From an uncultured Candidatus Saccharibacteria bacterium (GTDB lineage: Bacteria > Patescibacteriota > Saccharimonadia > Saccharimonadales > JAGQNJ01): a stretch of DNA of 64,000 nt. Below the pieces are notes generated by a model, which saw only the letters and a list, made by a program, of their open reading frames with translations, was not told the origin of the DNA and searched no databases. The position numbers and the translations under genes are program-made. The DNA lies in NCBI GenBank assembly GCA_964602865.1, contig CAZRSX010000001.1:153986-217985 (forward strand), written 5' to 3'. Shown here one piece after another: positions 51,095 to 58,862 of this stretch (position 1 is its first letter; each line of letters begins with the position of its first letter).

Positions 51095-52681
51095 ATGAAT
51101 CGTTTTTTACGTCGAGCAACAACACGACTTTCAGTCAGTGGCGCGGCTGCCCTTTTGATGGGCGTGACGCTCGGCGGCCAATTGCTCGGATTTTTGCGCA
51201 ATCGTTTGATCAGTACCAACTTTACGGTTAGCGACCCGGGCTCATCAGACGCTTTTTTTGCGGCCTTTCAAATTCCTGATTTCTTTTTCTACACTATTTC
51301 GGCTGGCGCGCTGGGCGTGGCATTCATTCCGTTTTTGAGCGATCGCTTGCAGGCCGGCGACAAAAAAGGCGCGTGGGAACTGACCAATAGTTTGCTCAAT
51401 GTGCTGATCGTGGTCATGCTGGCTGTCGGCGCACTGATACTGATCTTTGCCGAGCCGCTGATTGGTGCGTTGGCACCGAACTTACCACCCGATCACAAGC
51501 AGGAAGCAATCACTATCATGCGACTTATTGCCATGAACCCACTGTTGTTCAGTTTGGCCGGTATTATTACGAGCGTACAGCAAACTTATGGCCGATTTTT
51601 TTTCTATGCAATGGCGCCGCTTGTCTACAACTTCTCCATAATCGTTAGCATATTTGTGTTTGGCAATAGCATGGGAATTGTTGGGCTTGGCGTCGGCGCA
51701 CTTATTGGCGGCGTGCTGCAGTTGCTTATTGCAATTGTCGGTATGGTCGGGCTTGGCTATAGGTATCGGCCGCGTATCAATTGGCAAAGTGGCCGCTTTA
51801 GGGCCATGATGCGCCAACTGCCGCCGCGCTCGCTTGACCAGGGTATAGACCAGGTCAACAGTATCGTTGAGGTGAATCGAGCGCAGGCTCTTGGCACCGG
51901 CCCGATTAGCTACTACAATTTTGCGCTCACCCTGCAGAACGTACCAGTCATGCTGCTCGGTAACGCTATTTCTATTGCTGCTTTTCCACGCCTGACTGAG
52001 CGGCTATCACAGGGCCGGCCGGATCTGTTTCGCAAAGACTTCCTCAAAGTGCTCGGTATTATGATTTGGATGGCGTTGCCAGTTGTGGTGATTAGTTTTT
52101 TTGCTCGCGGCTATCTTGCCCGTCTGATCTTCGGTAGTGCTTCACCGCAAGTTGCCTTGATCTTTGGCTTTTTGTCGGCGGCAATATTTTTCCGCATTAT
52201 CTATAGCATTATCTCGCGGTATTTTTATGCTCACAAAGACTCGATGACGCCGCTTTTGGTATCAATTTTTGCTATCGGACTCAACATTTACCTCGCCTTT
52301 ACGCTCGCTCGCCCCGACGCCTATAGCATTTCCGGTCTGGCCATTGCACAGTCGATTGTCGCGTCAGTCGAAGTGTTGATACTGACGATAATAATTATCG
52401 TGCGCGACCGGCATTTTTTCACCGGCGCATTTATAGAAAAACTAACGCGGATGCTCTCGGCCACTGGCTTTGCTATTGTTGCGACCTACATCATGGTGCA
52501 GACGTTGCCACTCAGCGTTAACGACCGCGGCTTTGTGACGCTTGGCGGTAAGTTGATAAGTATCGCTGCTGTCACGATTGCTGTTTATCTTGTTACTTCT
52601 TTGCTGCTGGGGCTGGAAGAGCCCAAACCGGTTATCAGAAAAGCAAAGGCCATAATTCTAAAACCAATCCGTATCCAGTAG
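51095..52681 (+). CDS. murJ: lipid II flippase MurJ (MviN family)
   Basis: 528 aa with about 14 TM helices. The N-terminal pattern GQLLGFLRNRLISTNFG-like and FFAAFQIPDFFF is typical of MurJ/MOP. Confidence 0.85.
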   Translation: MNRFLRRATTRLSVSGAAALLMGVTLGGQLLGFLRNRLISTNFTVSDPGSSDAFFAAFQIPDFFFYTISAGALGVAFIPFLSDRLQAGDKKGAWELTNSLLNVLIVVMLAVGALILIFAEPLIGALAPNLPPDHKQEAITIMRLIAMNPLLFSLAGIITSVQQTYGRFFFYAMAPLVYNFSIIVSIFVFGNSMGIVGLGVGALIGGVLQLLIAIVGMVGLGYRYRPRINWQSGRFRAMMRQLPPRSLDQGIDQVNSIVEVNRAQALGTGPISYYNFALTLQNVPVMLLGNAISIAAFPRLTERLSQGRPDLFRKDFLKVLGIMIWMALPVVVISFFARGYLARLIFGSASPQVALIFGFLSAAIFFRIIYSIISRYFYAHKDSMTPLLVSIFAIGLNIYLAFTLARPDAYSISGLAIAQSIVASVEVLILTIIIIVRDRHFFTGAFIEKLTRMLSATGFAIVATYIMVQTLPLSVNDRGFVTLGGKLISIAAVTIAVYLVTSLLLGLEEPKPVIRKAKAIILKPIRIQ

Positions 52682-52715: not shown

Positions 52716-54512
52716 ATGAGTCAAGACCATATTCGGAATTTTTGCATTATTGCCCATATTGATCATGGCAAAAGTACCCTTGCTGACCGTTTGCTCGAGA
52801 TAACCGGCACAGTCCAGCAGCGCGATATGAAAGCCCAACTGCTTGATAAAATGGACCTGGAACGCGAAAAAGGCATCACCATCAAACTCGCCCCAGTCAG
52901 GATGGAGCATGATGGGCATCAGCTCAATCTGATTGATACGCCGGGCCACGTCGATTTTAGCTATGAAGTGTCACGCAGTCTGCAAGCCTGCGAAGGTGCA
53001 TTGCTGGTAGTTGATGCCAGCCAAGGCATTCAGGCGCAAACGCTGGCCAATGTCTACTTGGCGATGGAACAAGACCTCACGATTATTCCGGTGCTCAATA
53101 AAATTGACTTACCGGCGGCCGACGTGGAGCGTGTCAGTGCCGAAGTCATTGAACTGCTGGGCTGCAAAAAAGAAGACATCCTGCACATCAGTGCAAAAAC
53201 AGGGCAGGGCGTCGACAAAGTGTTGGAACGAATAATTTTAGATATACCTTCACCGCAAATTGGGCAGCAGGGCAAGGCGGTGCGTGACCCAGAAACGAGG
53301 GCGCTCATTTTTGACAGTTACTACGACGATTACCGCGGTGTTATTCTGTATGTCCGGCTCGTTGACGGCGCCATCAACAAAAACAGCGCGATTCACATGA
53401 TGGCCACAGGCACAGACGGCATCGCACTGGAAGTCGGTGCGCTGACGCCCAGCATGAGCCCACTTGCCAAATTAGGCAGCGGCGAAATCGGCTATGTTGT
53501 CACCAACCTCAAGTCCACCCGCGAAGCTCGCGTTGGCGATACCGTTACCCTCGTAGCCCACAAAGCCCAACAAGCACTACCGGGCTACAAAGATGTCAAG
53601 CCATTTGTCTACGCCGGCTTTTTCCCCCAGAGTAACGAAGAATACAACTTACTCAAAGAGGCCATCGAAAAACTGTCGCTGTCTGACTCGGCCTTGCAGT
53701 TCGAGCCGGAAAGCTCGCCGGTGCTTGGTTTTGGTATGCGGGTAGGTTTTTTGGGGCTGCTGCATATGGACATTGTCCGCGAGCGGCTGGAGCGCGAGTA
53801 CGACCTTGGCCTGATCGTGACCAACCCATCGACCGATTACCACGTGGTGCTCACCAGCGGCGAGGAGCTGGACATTCGCTCGGCCAGCGACCTGCCTGAT
53901 GTCGCGCAGATTCAGGAAATCAAAGAGCCGTGGATTGTCGGCGAAATCGTCGTGCCCAAAGCATACGTCGGCGCCGTACTCCAGCTGATTACCAGCAAGC
54001 GCGGACTGCAAAAAAATCTGTCGTACGTTGACGAGCTCACTGTTGTCACGTTTGAAGCGCCACTGGCGAACCTGCTGACAGATTTTTACGACCAACTCAA
54101 AAGCGTGACGTCCGGCTACGGCTCGTTCAACTACGAACTGGCAGATTATCGGACGGAAGATTTAGTACGCATAGATTTTTACGTGGCTGGCGAAATAGTC
54201 GAAGCACTGAGCGTCATGGCGCACCGCAGCGAAGCTCAAAGTCTAGGCCGCGAGGTGGTCGGCAAGCTCAAGGAAGTCATCCCGCGCCAAAACTTTAAGG
54301 TGGCGCTCCAAGCGGCGATTGGCGGCAAGTTTATTGCCCGCGAAGACCTCAGCGGCTACCGCAAAGATGTGACGGCCAAACTCTACGGCGGCGATGTCAC
54401 ACGCCGCAAAAAACTGCTCGAAAAGCAAAAAAAGGGCAAAGCTCGCATGAAACGCTTCGGCCAGGTCGATATCCCCGCCGAAGCCTTCACCGTGATGCTT
54501 AAAAGAGACTAG
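52716..54512 (+). CDS. lepA: translation elongation factor 4 (LepA)
   Basis: IRNFCIIAHIDHGKSTLADRLL, DTPGHVDF, NKIDLP, and a LepA-specific C-terminal domain. Confidence 0.95.
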   Translation: MSQDHIRNFCIIAHIDHGKSTLADRLLEITGTVQQRDMKAQLLDKMDLEREKGITIKLAPVRMEHDGHQLNLIDTPGHVDFSYEVSRSLQACEGALLVVDASQGIQAQTLANVYLAMEQDLTIIPVLNKIDLPAADVERVSAEVIELLGCKKEDILHISAKTGQGVDKVLERIILDIPSPQIGQQGKAVRDPETRALIFDSYYDDYRGVILYVRLVDGAINKNSAIHMMATGTDGIALEVGALTPSMSPLAKLGSGEIGYVVTNLKSTREARVGDTVTLVAHKAQQALPGYKDVKPFVYAGFFPQSNEEYNLLKEAIEKLSLSDSALQFEPESSPVLGFGMRVGFLGLLHMDIVRERLEREYDLGLIVTNPSTDYHVVLTSGEELDIRSASDLPDVAQIQEIKEPWIVGEIVVPKAYVGAVLQLITSKRGLQKNLSYVDELTVVTFEAPLANLLTDFYDQLKSVTSGYGSFNYELADYRTEDLVRIDFYVAGEIVEALSVMAHRSEAQSLGREVVGKLKEVIPRQNFKVALQAAIGGKFIAREDLSGYRKDVTAKLYGGDVTRRKKLLEKQKKGKARMKRFGQVDIPAEAFTVMLKRD

Positions 54513-54530
54513 TCAGACCATATTTTCTCA

Positions 54531-54555
54531 TTTTCCAAGGAGTATCCTTGGAAAA
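54531..54555 (+). terminator. hairpin after lepA
   Basis: TTTTCCAAGG-agtat-CCTTGGAAAA is a perfect 10-bp stem. Two further hairpins follow, at 54555-54570 and 54585-54600. Confidence 0.65.
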
Positions 54556-54652
54556 CACCACATATGGTGTCGGTACGCTATATATAGTGTAGCAACACTA
54601 CCTATAGCGTCGGAAACCACCCAAACTTTTCCACACCTCGCAACCCACACAC

Positions 54653-54682
54653 TTGCAATCCACTCAGGGGGGGGGGTACACT
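54653..54682 (+). promoter_or_regulatory. candidate promoter TTGCAA-18-TACACT with a G10 tract inside the spacer
   Basis: -35 at 54653-54658, G10 at 54667-54676, -10 at 54677-54682. The downstream 12-mer TAACCACAAGAG (54689) recurs at a similar offset from the promoter of the next surface gene (56724). Confidence 0.45.
54667..54676 (+). repeat. G10 homopolymer
   Basis: Counted directly. I saw no other G or C run of comparable length in the window. Confidence 0.95.
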
Positions 54683-54751
54683 TATAGGTAACCACAAGAG
54701 TAATGGAGTATAATCAACAAAAAGGGAAGCAGAGAGAGGAAAAGACACACA

Positions 54752-56637
54752 ATGTTTACTATACATATCAAACAACTACTACAACCAAACCGCCTATTCA
54801 ATGGAGCATTAGCCCTCCTCTTCCTCATAGCCACTATCCTCACCCTCATCCCAGCCCAACCAGCTCAGGCCGTTAATGTACCCATTACTATCCCGGATAC
54901 ACCGGTAGCTGATTTCCCGACCACTAGTGGTTTTGCCGGTGCCATCCTCCCCGCTCCTGACGGCTCAGTCTATGTCGGCGGTAACTTCACCGAAATCGGC
55001 GGTGTAGCCCGTAGTCGTCTGGCTCGTATCTTGCCAGACAACACCGTAGACCCAAATTTTGACCCGGATATTTCTGGCGAGTCGTGGAGTAATATATATG
55101 AACTCGCTCTTAGCCCTGACGGCCAAACGCTTTATGCTGGTGGCACCTTCGATACTGTTAACGGTGATATTGCTCGCGGAAGCTTGGCTGCTTTTAACGC
55201 AGAAACAGGTGTGGTGACAGACTTTAATCCTCTTGGAGGCGGTTATGTATATGCCATGACTCTATCTAGTGATGGAAACATTTTATATGTTGGTGGTGAC
55301 ATCAGCAAAGACGGGAGAAGCGTATTATTTGCACTCAACACCGCAACAGGAGCGATAGTACCCGGCTTTGAACCAGCCATTGATAGTATATGTGTCATGA
55401 ACTCTAGTTGTACAGAAGCCCTTGCTCTTAGCCCTGACGGCCAAACGCTTTATGCTGGTGGCACCTTCACGACATTAACTGTTCCTGCTAAAAAAATCTA
55501 GTAGCCTTCAATGCCAATACGGGCGCTGTTACTGATTTTAGCCCTAACGTAGAGACCGGACAAGGTATATATGTTTCTAGCCTTACCCTTACTAACGACG
55601 GTCAAACTCTCTACGCTGGTGGCACCTTCACCACCGTCAACGGCGATACCCCCAGAAACGGCCTAGCAGCTTTTGATACCTCCACCGGCACCGCTACGAG
55701 TTTTGATCCCAATATAAACGGTGCCAGCGCCCTGGCTGTCACTAGTGATGGTAACATTCTCTACGTCGGTGGCTGGTTTACCACCGTCAACGGTGACGTA
55801 GCTCGCAACGGCTTCGCTGCCTTCGATACCACCACTGGCATCGTTACTGATTTCAATCCTAACACGGACGATGGTACCTACATCCTCGCCCTCTCCCCCG
55901 ACAACCAAACTCTCTACGCCGGCGGCGCCTTCACCACCGTAGGCGGCCAGTCCCGACCACACCTCGCCGTCTTCCAAGCTGAGAACACCGCCCCCAACCA
56001 AGACCTCGACAATGACAACATCCCCAACCAACAAGAACAACAAGGCCCCAACAACGGCGATGCCAACAATGATGGTACACCCGACTACCAACAATCCCAC
56101 GTCGCCTCTCTCATCAACCCCGCCACCAACCAGTACGCCGTCCTGGAAGCCAATGAACACTGCTCCATCACCGAACTTGCCCTTACTCCCGAGTCTGCCA
56201 ATACCGCCTCAGATTCTAGCTATGACTACCCCCTAGGCCTAATGGACTTCACCATAGACTGCCAAGACAACGGCTTCACCACTACCATTACCCAATACTA
56301 CTACCATGCCCCCCAAGACCAGACCTACACCCTCAGAAAGTACAACCCTACCACCCAGACCTACACCACCATCACTGATGCCAGCATTGCCCACGAAACC
56401 ATCGACAACCACCCTGTCACCATGGCCACCTACAGCATCACTGACGGCGGCCCGCTGGATCTAGACGGAGAAGCCAATGGTATCATCGTAGACCCGGCTG
56501 GGCTTGGTACCACTGCAGATAGCAGCACCAACACCGGACTGGCAGACACCGGTATGAACCCCATGTACCTGCTTGTAGCCAGCGTCACCTTAGTCAGCAC
56601 TGGCTTTGTACTCAGCAGACGAGTACGCTACCTATAG
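54752..56637 (+). CDS. LAxTG-anchored beta-propeller surface protein, interrupted by a 1-nt frameshift at an A7 tract
   Basis: Signal peptide (LIPAQPAQA). There are repeated blades (...LSPDGQTLYAGGTFTTVNGD..R..LAAF...TG..T.F.P), a DNDN/NNDG Ca-binding-like region, and an Ig-like domain. The C-terminus carries LADTG, a hydrophobic helix and RRVRYL. The first frame stops at 55501, and the rest continues open from 55498 in the -1 frame relative to the first part (a -1 slip or one added A joins them). Confidence 0.7.
55490..55496 (+). repeat. A7 homopolymer at the frameshift site
   Basis: The sequence is GCT AAA AAA ATC TAG TAG. One extra A, or a -1 slip, gives ...PAKKNLVAFNANTG..., which restores the blade consensus. 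Confidence 0.9.
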
Positions 56638-56683
56638 CGTCGGTACACCATATGTGGTGCGGTTATTGTTGGGAGACAGCGGT

Positions 56684-56713
56684 TTGACTGATCTGCGTGC
56701 GGCTTGCTATACT
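56684..56713 (+). promoter_or_regulatory. promoter TTGACT-18-TATACT of the second surface gene
   Basis: -35 at 56684-56689 and -10 at 56708-56713. The shared 12-mer TAACCACAAGAG and an AAGAGGA SD follow. Confidence 0.5.
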
Positions 56714-56749
56714 AAAAACTAGCTAACCACAAGAGGAAATAAAACAAAC

Positions 56750-57754
56750 ATGGATCCGTGCATTTTAGCAGACACCGGTGTCAACCAAACGATACTTCTA
56801 GCCATCGGTAGCATATTGTTATGTGCGGCTGTCGGCTTTTTATATCTGCAGAAACGCTTTGGTATCAAAAGCCTTGTTTTGCTTTTTGCTATGTTTGGCT
56901 TGACACTTTTTGCCGCTTTACCTGCAACAAGCTACGCGCAAACTGCCGGAGATTGCCCGCCAGCAGCTCAAGACGAAGATAGCGGCAGTTCGCCGCAGGT
57001 GCTGAGTCTTGTGAATGACCAAGGAGTGCTACAACGCCCAAGTGGCGGTGATGGAGGTTCCCCGCAGACCTACCTCCATCTTGCTATTCTTGCCAATGAC
57101 AATGCACTGGCCGGTGACCCTATCGACTGGACGACCATCGATCTCGACCCGAACACGGCTGGCCAGCAAACCAGCCTAAGCCTCACTCACCCGAGCGACG
57201 CGACCTATAGTTGTGGCAGCATCACCGTAAGCAGCTTTGGTATTCTGGAGATTAGCCTGAACATCCGCTGTTACAATGAGTCCTTTGATGAACTGACCAT
57301 TCCTGGCGACTACGCCATTCCGCCGTTTACCTACACCGCTCAGACGCTTGGCGGCAATCCGGCGCCAGCACCGGCTACGGTGACTATCCTGGTTGTAGCA
57401 GAGCCGGAACCGGGCGTTGTCTTTGCTCAAGATGATCAGGAATCTGCGGGTGGTGGTTGTTCGTTTGAGGGCTTTACACTGAACTTGGTGGCTAACGACT
57501 CGACAACGACCGGCACCATAGACCCGACAACCGTTGACCTAAACCCCGGACTGCCCGGCCTGCAAAAAACCGTCACCCTAGACTACCAAGCGTCAGTGTT
57601 CCAAGCCAGTGTAGACAACAGCGGCGTCGTCACCGTGACGCGACTGAGCGGCATTGATGCCGATCCGCCAACCTTTTACTACACCGTGCAAAACACCAAT
57701 GGTGATGTCTCGAACGTTGCCACGATTCTCTACGAATGCATGGTATGGTCATAG
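56750..57754 (+). CDS. secreted protein with two cadherin/VCBS-like modules and an N-terminal sorting-signal-like segment
   Basis: The N-terminus MDPCILADTGVNQTILLAIGSILLCAAVGFLYLQKR is followed by a signal-peptide-like LVLLFAMFGLTLFAALPATSYAQT. Two modules are related (ILANDNALAGDPIDWTTIDLDP and LVANDSTTTGTIDPTTVDLNP). Confidence 0.5.
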   Translation: MDPCILADTGVNQTILLAIGSILLCAAVGFLYLQKRFGIKSLVLLFAMFGLTLFAALPATSYAQTAGDCPPAAQDEDSGSSPQVLSLVNDQGVLQRPSGGDGGSPQTYLHLAILANDNALAGDPIDWTTIDLDPNTAGQQTSLSLTHPSDATYSCGSITVSSFGILEISLNIRCYNESFDELTIPGDYAIPPFTYTAQTLGGNPAPAPATVTILVVAEPEPGVVFAQDDQESAGGGCSFEGFTLNLVANDSTTTGTIDPTTVDLNPGLPGLQKTVTLDYQASVFQASVDNSGVVTVTRLSGIDADPPTFYYTVQNTNGDVSNVATILYECMVWS

Positions 57755-57772
57755 AATAGAGTCTAAACGTTC

Positions 57773-58240
57773 TTAAGAAGCCGTTTGCAGTCGTTTGAGT
57801 TCGCTTAGTACTTGCTCGCCGTGTCCAAGCGGCGTGACGCGGCCGTAGGTTTTCTTGATTTCACCCTGCGGGCTGATGATAAACGTCTTGCGTAAAATTC
57901 CCTCGCGGCCAAACATCTTTTTGCCCCACGCGCCGTAGGCTTCGATGGTTGTGCCGTCCGGGTCAGATAGCAGTGTGAAGTTGAGCTGGTGTTTGGCTTT
58001 GAACTTGCGGTGGCTATCCGCATCGTCTTTGCTAATACCAACCACCTGAGCACCAGCGGCAATCAGCTCGTCGTTGGCATCACGTAAACTGCAGGCCTCA
58101 ACCGTGCAGCCGGGCGTGTCATCTTTGGGGTAAAAATACAGCACCAGCCATGCCCCGGCAAAATCTTGCAGGGTTTTGGTCTTGCCGTCTTGGTCTTTGA
58201 GCGTAAAATCCGGCGCTTTATGCATCATGGCCGGTTTCAC
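57773..58240 (-). CDS. bcp: peroxiredoxin, Bcp/PrxQ type
   Basis: FYPKDDTPGCTVEAC is the peroxidatic Cys context. The GTG start at 58240 overlaps the upstream gene; an alternative ATG lies at 58228. Confidence 0.85.
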   Translation of the reverse strand: MKPAMMHKAPDFTLKDQDGKTKTLQDFAGAWLVLYFYPKDDTPGCTVEACSLRDANDELIAAGAQVVGISKDDADSHRKFKAKHQLNFTLLSDPDGTTIEAYGAWGKKMFGREGILRKTFIISPQGEIKKTYGRVTPLGHGEQVLSELKRLQTAS

Positions 58241-58862
58241 TCATTGCTCGTTCAAGTAATGCAGAGAAAATTGAGTCTGTCACTTCATCGGGGGTTTGAG
58301 TGCCGTCGATGCCAACCAACAGCCCTTTGTCTCGGTAATAGTCAATGACAGGGACGGTTTTGTTGCGAAACTCCTCAAGGCGGACTTCCAACGCTTCGGC
58401 TGCGTCATCTTCGCGTTCACCTCGATCCTTGAGCTCCTGAGCAGCTTGCCAACGTTTCTGAATTTCTGTTTCGGGTAGGTCAAGAAAAATCACCGCTTTT
58501 TGAGGATGGCCGCTCCGAATAGCAGCATCCATTATGACTTGATCTTCACCAATCCACCGGCCAACTGAACTTAGAATGATTGGCCTATCTGCAAATTCTG
58601 TTTTGCTCAAAAACGGAGTAACTGTCGCAAGATAGGCATCGGTTGGCGCAAGTTTCCCGCCAGCAATCGCTGCTTTTAGCTTTTCGTCGTTTCCGCTGCG
58701 AATAATGTCGCCACCACCGATAAGCGGCGCGTTAAAAAACTCGGCTAGGCGCTTCCCTTGGGTATCTTTACCTGCCCACGGTGTGCCAAAAATATTGATT
58801 GAACCTGTCCCCAACCATTTCTTTAGTGTTGCGACCCGAGTTTCACTGAGGTTTATTGCCAT
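58218..58862 (-). CDS. adenylate-kinase-like nucleoside monophosphate kinase
   Basis: The P-loop variant INIFGTPWAGKDTQGKRLA and the C-terminal pattern RLEEFRNKTVPVIDYYRDKGLLVGIDGTQTPDEV are collinear with Adk. The ATG at 58862 lies 7 nt downstream of TATAAT. Confidence 0.6.
   Translation of the reverse strand: MAINLSETRVATLKKWLGTGSINIFGTPWAGKDTQGKRLAEFFNAPLIGGGDIIRSGNDEKLKAAIAGGKLAPTDAYLATVTPFLSKTEFADRPIILSSVGRWIGEDQVIMDAAIRSGHPQKAVIFLDLPETEIQKRWQAAQELKDRGEREDDAAEALEVRLEEFRNKTVPVIDYYRDKGLLVGIDGTQTPDEVTDSIFSALLERAMSETGHDA

What the first reader, a model, noticed from the sequence alone, without database searches (positions are those of the whole stretch)
54531..57754. Candidate phase-variable, recombining LAxTG surface-protein locus downstream of lepA
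Several independent oddities co-localise in 3.2 kb. A G10 tract lies inside the spacer of the candidate promoter. An A7 tract carries the single frameshift that splits a ~628-aa propeller/LAxTG protein. A 45-nt perfect intragenic repeat lies 22 nt upstream of that frameshift. The gene is bracketed by 15-bp inverted and 21-bp direct repeats that look like the 3' end of a lost paralog. The next gene shares a 5'-UTR 12-mer and begins with a copy of the sorting signal. Together this resembles contingency loci of host-associated bacteria (slipped-strand on/off switching plus cassette recombination). If the organism is a CPR episymbiont, as gene content suggests, such a switchable adhesin-like locus would, to my knowledge, be undescribed.
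Basis: partly seen in the sequence, partly recalled or inferred. Interest (0 to 1): 0.75.

Follow-up and report, generated by a model that had tools for sequence, protein, structure and literature searches.

The report
Possibly switchable surface-protein gene in Saccharibacteria
A cell-wall-anchored surface protein gene, inserted next to lepA in a Saccharibacteria genome, carries a run of 10 G in its promoter and is broken at a run of 7 A, so it may switch on and off by slippage, but one assembly cannot prove this.

Summary
The sequence features are all real. G10 (54667-54676) is the only G/C run of 7 or more in the window, and 401 kb of related Saccharibacteria DNA has no G/C run of 8 or more. 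It fills the 18-nt spacer of TTGCAA/TACACT. The closest homologue has the same promoter layout without the tract. An A7 (55490-55496) is the only break in a 628-aa gene: signal peptide, 7-blade delta-60 propeller, choice-of-anchor-U domain and LADTG sorting signal. A8 restores a colinear, confidently folding protein.

Saccharibacteria are reported to lack MutS/MutL, so both tracts should be unstable. Slippage-driven on/off switching is my best reading (about 0.4). No tool here gives reads, and no close relative exists in the collections searched, so a plain pseudogene or a homopolymer assembly error remain live.

The "lost paralog / cassette recombination" part is not supported:
- The bracketing repeats are five 14-bp palindromes at exact 20-nt phasing, lying upstream of both promoters.
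- There is no second copy of the gene in the window.
- The next gene's N-terminal LADTG is a conserved trait of its family, analogous to the N-terminal LPXTG of streptococcal IgA1 proteases.
- A related genome has that gene directly after lepA, so the propeller gene is probably an insertion.

The parts
52716..54512 (+). lepA, the conserved left flank.
   Evidence: 598-aa ORF. It is 70-81% identical to Saccharibacteria LepA.
54531..54555 (+). Perfect 10-bp stem hairpin (TTTTCCAAGG-AGTAT-CCTTGGAAAA) just after the lepA stop. It may be a terminator or the boundary of the insertion.
   Evidence: The 113-nt region folds with z = -7.3.
54556..54609 (.). Upstream array of three 14-bp palindromes, CRCYA-N4-TRGYG, starting at 54556, 54576 and 54596. 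The period is exactly 20 nt.
   Evidence: 6 matches in the window against 0.94 expected, 5 of them here. One search shows the units.
54653..54682 (+). Candidate promoter P1: TTGCAA, an 18-nt spacer, then TACACT.
   Evidence: Sequence. The same layout (TTGCTA-17-TATACT-5 nt-TAACCATAAG) lies upstream of the closest homologue in L083. The consensus scanner did not call it.
54667..54676 (+). G10 homopolymer filling the 3' part of the P1 spacer.
54685..54703 (+). Leader motif TAGGTAACCACAAGAGTAA, shared 17/19 with the leader of the next gene.
   Evidence: (family D11).
54752..55501 (+). 5' part of gene 1: signal peptide and propeller blades 1 to about 4. In the A7 state it stops at TAG after 249 aa.
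55106..55150 (+). 45-nt perfect repeat, copy 1 (blade 2, ALSPDGQTLYAGGTF).
55424..55468 (+). 45-nt perfect repeat, copy 2 (blade 4).
   Evidence: Other blade pairs are 63-67% identical over the same stretch (family D1).
55490..55496 (+). A7 tract carrying the single frameshift. A8 would read GCT AAA AAA AAT, that is A-K-K-N.
55492..56637 (+). 3' part of gene 1 in the other frame: blades 4-7, a TSP3-like Asp/Asn linker, a choice-of-anchor-U domain and the LADTG sorting signal (56539-56553).
56626..56659 (.). Downstream array of two palindromes (56626 and 56646, 20 nt apart). The first overlaps the stop codon of gene 1.
56684..56713 (+). Promoter P2 of the next gene: TTGACT, 18-nt spacer, TATACT (10/12 match).
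   Evidence: It aligns with the lepA-g2 intergenic promoter of L086.
56720..56738 (+). Leader motif TAGCTAACCACAAGAGGAA.
56750..57754 (+). g2: 334 aa with N-terminal MDPC-I-LADTG (56765-56779), TM1, a K/R loop, a second hydrophobic segment ending YA|Q, and two Ig-like adhesin domains.
57773..58240 (-). AhpC/TSA-family peroxiredoxin (bcp-like), the conserved right flank.

Best explanation
Gene 1 encodes a sortase-anchored surface protein with five parts:
- a signal peptide;
- a 7-bladed delta-60/DUF5122 beta-propeller;
- a TSP3-like linker;
- a choice-of-anchor-U domain;
- a LADTG sorting signal followed by a membrane helix and a basic tail.

It arrived, with its own promoter, as an insertion of about 2.15 kb between lepA and g2.

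Two homopolymers gate its expression, and both should be hypermutable because Saccharibacteria lack MutS/MutL.
1. G10 sets the -35/-10 spacing of promoter P1. The spacing is 18 nt now, and G9 would give the 17 nt seen in the closest homologue.
2. An A8/A7 tract in codons 247-249 sets the reading frame.

The assembled consensus is in the OFF state. A7 yields a 249-aa secreted stub with no anchor. Slippage back to A8 restores the full protein.

Shown here: the tracts, their positions, the single break, the intact downstream frame, the conserved promoter layout and the rarity of such tracts in the clade. Inferred: that tract lengths actually vary, that the variation changes expression, and that the organism benefits from it.
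For: - G10 is unique. G runs go G5 x9 and then straight to G10.
- G/C runs of 7 or more: window 5.3 expected, 1 observed; 401 kb of related loci 22 expected, 2 observed. Runs of 8 or more in the related loci: 5.2 expected, 0 observed.
- The P1 layout, TTGCAA-18-TACACT-6-TAACCACAAG, matches TTGCTA-17-TATACT-5-TAACCATAAG upstream of the closest homologue, P0001 in L083.
- The A7 is the only disruption. A8 gives a protein colinear with intact 577-635-aa homologues through the junction and the LAxTG signal. It folds confidently (pLDDT 82.4; junction blocks 83-94).
- The 381-codon downstream frame has no stop.
- No other homopolymer in the window breaks a gene, which argues against a generally error-prone assembly.
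- MutS and MutL were not detected in Saccharibacteria (PMC8406219).
- The product is predicted to be surface-exposed.
Against: - There are no reads, and no relative closer than 49% identity exists in any collection searched. Tract-length variation is therefore unobserved.
- A7 is an ordinary length here: 11 A7 and 9 T7 tracts in the window. A one-off deletion in a former A8 is just what neutral decay would produce.
- The P1 hexamers are weak (8/12) and were not called by the scanner.
- P2 also has an 18-nt spacer, so 18 nt need not mean OFF.
- A perfect TATAAT at 54709-54714 is an alternative -10. With it, G10 would sit upstream of the core promoter.
- No homologous locus examined carries a comparable tract, so this is not a family-wide strategy.
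Confidence: 0.4

Rival explanations
1. Plain pseudogene. A recently acquired, dispensable surface-protein gene suffered a one-base deletion at its longest A tract and is starting to decay. G10 is an unselected, transient accident of the inserted DNA.
For: - The gene is accessory. None of the related loci L001-L030 has it downstream of lepA, and L086 has g2 directly after lepA.
- Its codon usage is atypical: third-position G is 0.06-0.09, against 0.21-0.25 in neighbouring genes.
- A7 tracts are common in the window, and a former A8 would have been the most fragile A tract.
- Neither fragment appears in the protein database, although g2 from the same genome does. This is consistent with pseudogene annotation in the source record, which is my inference.
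Against: - There is only one lesion. The 381 downstream codons stay open and model as a confident fold.
- In a clade that purges G/C runs of 7 or more, an unselected G10 exactly inside a promoter spacer is unlikely to persist.
Confidence: 0.3
2. Assembly or base-calling error. The true sequence is A8 and the gene is intact. The length of G10 may also be mis-called, although the tract itself is real.
For: - The break is a single-base difference in a homopolymer, which is the typical long-read error.
- Several related MAGs in the collections are long-read assemblies (a chromosome-level MAG is listed).
- The sequencing platform of the source contig (223 kb) is unknown.
Against: - None of the other 121 homopolymers of 5-6 or more in 64 kb disrupts a gene.
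- The T8 at 51596-51603 in murJ is in frame.
Confidence: 0.2
3. Programmed recoding. The full-length protein is made from the A7 template by -1 ribosomal frameshifting or by transcriptional slippage on the A run.
For: A -1 slip on AAA AAA would read P-A-K-K-N-L-V-A-F. From my own knowledge, RNA polymerase slippage on A runs is known in other bacteria.
Against: - The zero-frame heptamer is U AAA AAA, not X XXY YYZ.
- There is no stable structure downstream. Fold z-scores are +1.46, +0.57 and -0.52.
- Intact homologues have no A run at this site.
- From my own knowledge, A7 is short for efficient transcriptional slippage.
Confidence: 0.05
4. Recombinational switch. Either the segment flanked by inverted repeats inverts, or the gene exchanges sequence with silent paralogous cassettes.
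For: - A 15-bp perfect inverted repeat and a 19-nt direct repeat flank the gene.
- The 45-nt perfect intragenic repeat and the GC3 mosaic (0.30 rising to 0.82) indicate past gene conversion or recombination.
Against: - There is no second copy or fragment of the gene in 64 kb.
- None of the genes I scanned, from guaA-like (44.7 kb) to 63.7 kb, is a recombinase.
- The inverted repeat encloses the promoter as well, so inversion would not switch the gene.
- The repeats resolve into 20-nt phased palindromes whose spacers (TCGGTA) are in direct, not inverted, orientation.
- g2's N-terminal sorting signal is a conserved family trait, not a relic.
Confidence: 0.03

Closest known systems
Promoter-spacer homopolymer switches: Neisseria meningitidis porA (poly-G) and opc (poly-C), and Mycoplasma hyorhinis vlp (poly-A). 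Recalled from my own knowledge.
   Same: A homopolymer lies between the -35 and -10 hexamers of a surface-protein gene, so a one-base slip changes the spacer length (18 nt here, 17 nt in the homologue).
   Different: Length variation and an effect on expression are not shown here. The phylum is different (Saccharibacteria). The hexamers are weak.
Intragenic poly-G/poly-A contingency genes of MMR-deficient Campylobacter jejuni and Helicobacter pylori. Recalled from my own knowledge.
   Same: The organism lacks MutS/MutL (PMC8406219). The homopolymer sits inside a surface-protein ORF, and one length gives a truncated product.
   Different: A7/A8 is at the short end for such tracts and is not over-long for this genome. 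There is one locus only, with no evidence of a genome-wide set.
Delta-60 repeat / DUF5122 propeller proteins with a choice-of-anchor-U domain and a LAxTG (class E sortase-type) signal.
   Same: The matches are PF17164, PF12768, TIGR02608 (below its cut-off) and NF041766 (above its cut-off). The LADTG-TM-basic tail is conserved in Saccharibacteria homologues.
   Different: Best identity is only 49%. The gene is frameshifted. It stands alone next to lepA rather than in the tandem arrays of L081 and L082.
N-terminal LPXTG anchor domain of Gram-positive M26 IgA1 metalloproteases (PMC9637739, citing Bender and Weiser 2006). This comparison concerns g2.
   Same: A sortase motif lies at the extreme N-terminus, followed by hydrophobic segments and a cleavage site about 55 residues downstream. 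In g2, LADTG is at residues 6-10 and YA|Q at 63/64.
   Different: The motif is LAxTG and is preceded by a conserved Cys. The passenger is two Ig-like adhesin domains, not a protease. The phylum is different, and no experimental data exist.

Membership tests
Homopolymer (SSR) phase-variable contingency locus | A tract long enough to be hypermutable and exceptional for the genome. | tested here: met
   G10 is the only G/C run of 7 or more in the window. There is no run of 8 or more in 401 kb of relatives. A7 is not exceptional.
Homopolymer (SSR) phase-variable contingency locus | The tract is placed so that a +/-1 change alters transcription or the reading frame. | tested here: met
   G10 lies in the 18-nt spacer of P1, whose layout is conserved in L083. 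A7 versus A8 decides between a 249-aa and a 628-aa product.
Homopolymer (SSR) phase-variable contingency locus | Tract length is polymorphic within or between populations. | not testable with these tools
   There are no reads. No relative above 49% identity was found.
Homopolymer (SSR) phase-variable contingency locus | Reversible ON/OFF expression is demonstrated. | not testable with these tools
   This needs reporter assays, RNA-seq or proteomics.
Sortase-anchored LAxTG surface protein | N-terminal signal peptide plus a C-terminal LAxTG, hydrophobic helix and basic tail. | tested here: met
   The repaired protein ends LADTG-MNPMYLLVASVTLVSTGFVL-SRRVRYL. Homologues share this ending. AF2 models helices at residues 11-31 and 604-627.
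Sortase-anchored LAxTG surface protein | A cognate sortase is encoded in the genome. | tested here: inconclusive
   No sortase was found in the 64-kb window by tblastn with the L084 sortase. The rest of the genome is not available. A sortase lies 2 kb from the g2 homologue in L084.
Delta-60/DUF5122 propeller with choice-of-anchor-U | Profile matches above the curated cut-offs. | tested here: met
   PF12768 scores 58.2 (cut-off 28.8), PF17164 scores 55.1 (cut-off 27) and NF041766 scores 57.4 (cut-off 32). TIGR02608 is below its cut-off.
Cassette-based antigenic variation (pilE/pilS-like) | Silent homologous donor cassettes near the expression locus. | tested here: not met
   tblastn and blastn of the locus against the window find only intragenic blade repeats.
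Invertible-promoter / invertible-segment switch | Inverted repeats flank a promoter (not promoter plus gene), with a recombinase nearby. | tested here: not met
   The inverted repeat encloses both P1 and the gene. The repeat spacers are in direct orientation. The flanking genes are housekeeping.
Programmed -1 ribosomal frameshift | An X XXY YYZ slippery heptamer in frame plus a downstream stimulatory structure. | tested here: not met
   The heptamer is U AAA AAA. Fold z-scores of the downstream region are +1.46 and +0.57.
N-terminal LPXTG anchor domain (M26 IgA1-protease type), for g2 | A sortase motif within the first ~15 residues, then a membrane helix, basic residues, a second hydrophobic segment and a cleavage site about 55 residues on. 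| tested here: met
   The layout is conserved in 7 of 9 aligned homologues and in all but one of 19 further family representatives. The layout of the known family is taken from PMC9637739.
N-terminal LPXTG anchor domain (M26 IgA1-protease type), for g2 | Sortase-dependent processing and localisation are shown. | not testable with these tools
   This needs experiments.

The most novel reading that the evidence does not exclude
This would be the first homopolymer contingency locus in the Candidate Phyla Radiation. In a Saccharibacterium that lacks mismatch repair, an acquired sortase-anchored propeller adhesin is gated twice, by G10 in the promoter spacer and by A8/A7 in the ORF.

It would also be wired, through phased 20-nt palindrome arrays and a common leader motif, to the neighbouring Ig-like adhesin g2, which uses an unusual N-terminal Cys-x-LAxTG anchor. 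Population-level switching of attachment proteins could then tune which host bacteria the epibiont binds.
Probability: 0.25. Interest if true: 0.7.

Novelty: new member of a known kind. Interest (0 to 1): 0.45.

Why it matters
Cultivated Saccharibacteria live attached to host bacteria, and how they choose and hold hosts is largely unknown. A surface adhesin that switches stochastically would give a concrete mechanism for within-population variation in attachment. It would also extend contingency loci to a phylum where my literature searches found none reported.

The test is cheap: count tract lengths in existing reads. Separately, the conserved N-terminal LAxTG family (g2) shows that the atypical N-terminal sortase anchor known from streptococcal IgA1 proteases also occurs in CPR adhesin-like proteins.

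Tried and rejected
- **Genome-contig scan with LepA:** the closest relative is 81% identical, and none has the locus. However, the protein searches also show none closer than 49% for gene 1, or for g2 apart from the source genome's own copy.
- **Metagenome-contig scan with the repaired protein:** one relative, at 36% identity.
- **Relic-of-a-paralog idea for g2's N-terminus:** rejected by family conservation.
- **Terminal inverted repeats of a mobile element:** the spacers between the palindromes are in direct orientation, and there is no transposase.
- **Palindrome array in other genomes:** there are no clusters in 1.4 Mb of fetched loci.
- **Rfam:** no hit.
- **RNA structure for frameshifting:** none.
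- **General assembly sloppiness:** no other homopolymer frameshift.
- **Leader motif TAACCAYAAG:** not enriched overall (13 observed against about 12 expected in 1.5 Mb). It does sit just after a -10-like hexamer in four Saccharibacteria cases.
Full report
**Organism and setting.** LepA of the window (52716-54512) is 70-81% identical to LepA of uncultured Saccharibacteria/Saccharimonadia MAGs. The order murJ-lepA-[variable]-hrcA-grpE is shared with them. Flanking genes are housekeeping: OTCase, tilS, ftsH, murJ and lepA on the left; a peroxiredoxin, an adenylate-kinase-like gene, hrcA, grpE and dnaK on the right. The interval after lepA differs from genome to genome.

**The observations hold.**
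- G10 is at 54667-54676 and A7 at 55490-55496.
- The 45-nt perfect repeat is at 55106-55150 and 55424-55468, ending 21 nt before A7.
- A 15-bp perfect inverted repeat lies within a 36-nt, 81% match.
- A 19-nt direct repeat (18/19) flanks the gene, and its downstream copy overlaps the stop codon.
- A 12-mer, TAACCACAAGAG, within a 17/19 block is shared by both leaders.
- The next ORF begins MDPCILADTG.

**Gene 1.** Adding one A (A8) joins the 249-aa ORF to the 381-codon frame that ends at 56637. The 628-aa product has the following features:
- a signal peptide;
- a propeller matching PF12768 and PF17164 above their cut-offs, with a delta-60 repeat match below its cut-off;
- an Asp/Asn-rich linker;
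- a choice-of-anchor-U domain (NF041766);
- a C-terminal LADTG followed by a helix and a basic tail.

It aligns end to end with intact 577-635-aa homologues, at least one of which NCBI names as Saccharibacteria. The alignment runs through the junction, where A-K-K-N-L-V-A-F lines up with A-R-G-G-I / T-R-N-N-L. AlphaFold2 models it with mean pLDDT 82.4, and the junction blocks score 83-94. So this is one gene with one lesion, a loss of one A from A8.

In the A7 state the product is a 249-aa secreted stub. The downstream frame has no ATG, GTG or TTG for 250 codons, so the C-terminal part cannot restart.

**Is the break an artefact?** I edited each of 122 homopolymers by +/-1. Only this one joins two long ORFs inside a gene; the other four flagged sites are at gene ends. 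The assembly is therefore not generally sloppy. A single error cannot be excluded, because the sequencing platform is unknown.

**The G tract.** G runs in the window fall off as G3 404, G4 80, G5 9, then none until G10.

| Sequence | Run length | Expected (iid) | Observed |
|---|---|---|---|
| Window (64 kb) | G/C of 7 or more | 5.3 | 1 (the G10) |
| Related Saccharibacteria loci (401 kb) | G/C of 7 or more | 22 | 2 |
| Related Saccharibacteria loci (401 kb) | G/C of 8 or more | 5.2 | 0 |

The clade avoids long G/C runs. That fits the reported absence of MutS and MutL in Saccharibacteria (PMC8406219).

G10 fills the last ten bases of an 18-nt spacer between TTGCAA and TACACT. The hexamers are weak, and the scanner did not call them. 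However, the closest homologue (P0001, 49% identical, locus L083) has TTGCTA-17 nt-TATACT-TGGAT-TAACCATAAG upstream of its start. The window has TTGCAA-18 nt-TACACT-TATAGG-TAACCACAAG. This shared layout is my main reason to accept P1 as a real promoter with G10 in its spacer. G9 would reproduce the homologue's 17-nt spacing.

Two caveats apply. P2 also has an 18-nt spacer. A perfect TATAAT at 54709-54714 could be the true -10.

**The bracketing repeats.** They resolve into five copies of a 14-bp palindrome, CRCYA-N4-TRGYG, at 54556, 54576, 54596, 56626 and 56646. That is exactly 20 nt apart within each array. The window has 6 matches against 0.94 expected. No such clusters occur in 1.4 Mb of other loci.

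Three copies lie upstream of P1 and two upstream of P2. The spacers (TCGGTA) are in direct orientation on both sides, so this is not a simple terminal inverted repeat. I read the copies as phased protein-binding sites shared by two promoters, or as marks of the insertion boundary. Their function is unexplained.

**The next gene, g2.**
- Its 334-aa product is in NCBI from the source genome (P0121, 100% identical, contig of 223 kb).
- Full-length homologues at 34-49% identity mostly keep the same N-terminus: M-x-C-x-LAxTG, a membrane helix, K/R residues, a second hydrophobic segment and YA|Q.
- A profile search of 1.84 billion representatives found about 25 further full-length members. All but one of the 19 I read carry the motif.
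- The mature part models as two Ig-like domains most like RTX-adhesin extender repeats and cadherins. The second domain recurs up to 26 times in giant proteins.
- In L086 the g2 homologue lies directly after lepA. Its promoter aligns with P2 of the window.
- In L084 the homologue stands alone, 2 kb from a sortase gene. L088 has three copies in tandem.

So g2 is ancestral at this site. Its N-terminal LADTG is a family trait rather than a relic of a lost paralog. Gene 1, with its promoter and palindromes (about 54516-56663), is extra DNA relative to L086.

The known analogue is the N-terminal LPXTG of Gram-positive M26 IgA1 proteases, which are cleaved 56 residues downstream of the motif (PMC9637739). 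In g2 the predicted cleavage site is 53 residues after the motif.

**History of recombination.**
- The 45-nt identity between blades 2 and 4 stands out against 63-67% identity for other blade pairs and indicates recent intragenic conversion.
- Third-position GC climbs from 0.30 to 0.82 along the gene.
- Third-position G is 0.06-0.09, against 0.21-0.25 in neighbouring genes. Homologues show a milder form of the same bias.

This fits an acquired, mosaic gene. There is no donor cassette in the window and no recombinase nearby, so an active cassette system is not supported.

**Other rivals.** Programmed frameshifting lacks a proper slippery heptamer and a downstream structure. Rfam has no match in 54300-58300.

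**Verdict.** The anatomy is that of a classical slipped-strand switch placed on an acquired adhesin-like gene, in a lineage that lacks mismatch repair.

| Reading | Confidence |
|---|---|
| Reversible switching | 0.40 |
| Simple pseudogene | 0.30 |
| Assembly error at A7 | 0.20 |
| Recoding | 0.05 |
| Recombinational switching | 0.03 |

Phase variation of this kind is well known elsewhere, so I rate this as a new member of a known kind, of moderate interest and cheap to test.

Noticed in passing
window 56750-57754; loci L084, L086, L088: g2 belongs to a family of proteins of about 320-350 aa. Their N-terminus reads M-x(1-7)-C-x(0-2)-LAxTG, then a membrane helix, K/R residues, a second hydrophobic segment and A|Q, followed by two Ig-like adhesin domains. 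A conserved Cys sits just before the sortase motif. The layout resembles the N-terminal LPXTG anchor of streptococcal IgA1 proteases.
   Followed up: yes
window 54556-54609 and 56626-56659: Five 14-bp palindromes, CRCYA-N4-TRGYG, lie at exact 20-nt phasing: three upstream of P1 and two upstream of P2. The half-sites are CACCA, CGCTA or CACTA. The binding factor and the function are unknown.
   Followed up: partly
window 54531-54555: A perfect 10-bp stem hairpin, TTTTCCAAGG-AGTAT-CCTTGGAAAA, lies 19 nt after the lepA stop, with no U tract after it. It is absent from the orthologous intergenic region of L086.
   Followed up: partly
window 54752-56637: Gene 1 almost lacks G at third codon positions (0.06-0.09, against 0.21-0.25 in neighbours). 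GC3 rises from 0.30 to 0.82 along the gene. As a result there is no ATG, GTG or TTG for 250 codons after the frameshift.
   Followed up: partly
window 54709-54714: A perfect TATAAT lies 38 nt upstream of the gene 1 start codon, with no good -35. It is an alternative -10 that would put G10 at about -45 to -54.
   Followed up: no
window 54631-54663: A 15-nt unit (CCACACACTCGCAAC) occurs in 2.3 tandem copies and overlaps the -35 hexamer of P1.
   Followed up: no
L082 10001-15275; L081 3498-9413: Other Saccharibacteria carry two or three intact LAxTG propeller genes in tandem, with 4-nt overlaps. In L082 the array lies between ftsH and murJ, the same neighbourhood as the window but at a different insertion point.
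   Followed up: partly
L088 5791-8991: There are three tandem paralogs of g2 in one genome.
   Followed up: no
window and L001-L020, L022, L030, L043, L081-L083: Long G/C homopolymers are strongly depleted in these Saccharibacteria sequences. In 401 kb, runs of 7 or more are 22 expected against 2 observed. This is consistent with selection against unstable tracts in a lineage without MutS/MutL.
   Followed up: partly
L083 7911-7954; L088 4769; window 54689 and 56724: The motif TAACCAYAAG lies 5-11 nt downstream of a -10-like hexamer at three promoters (window P1 and P2, L083) and just downstream of a -10-like hexamer in L088. It may be a conserved start-of-transcript or leader element.
   Followed up: partly
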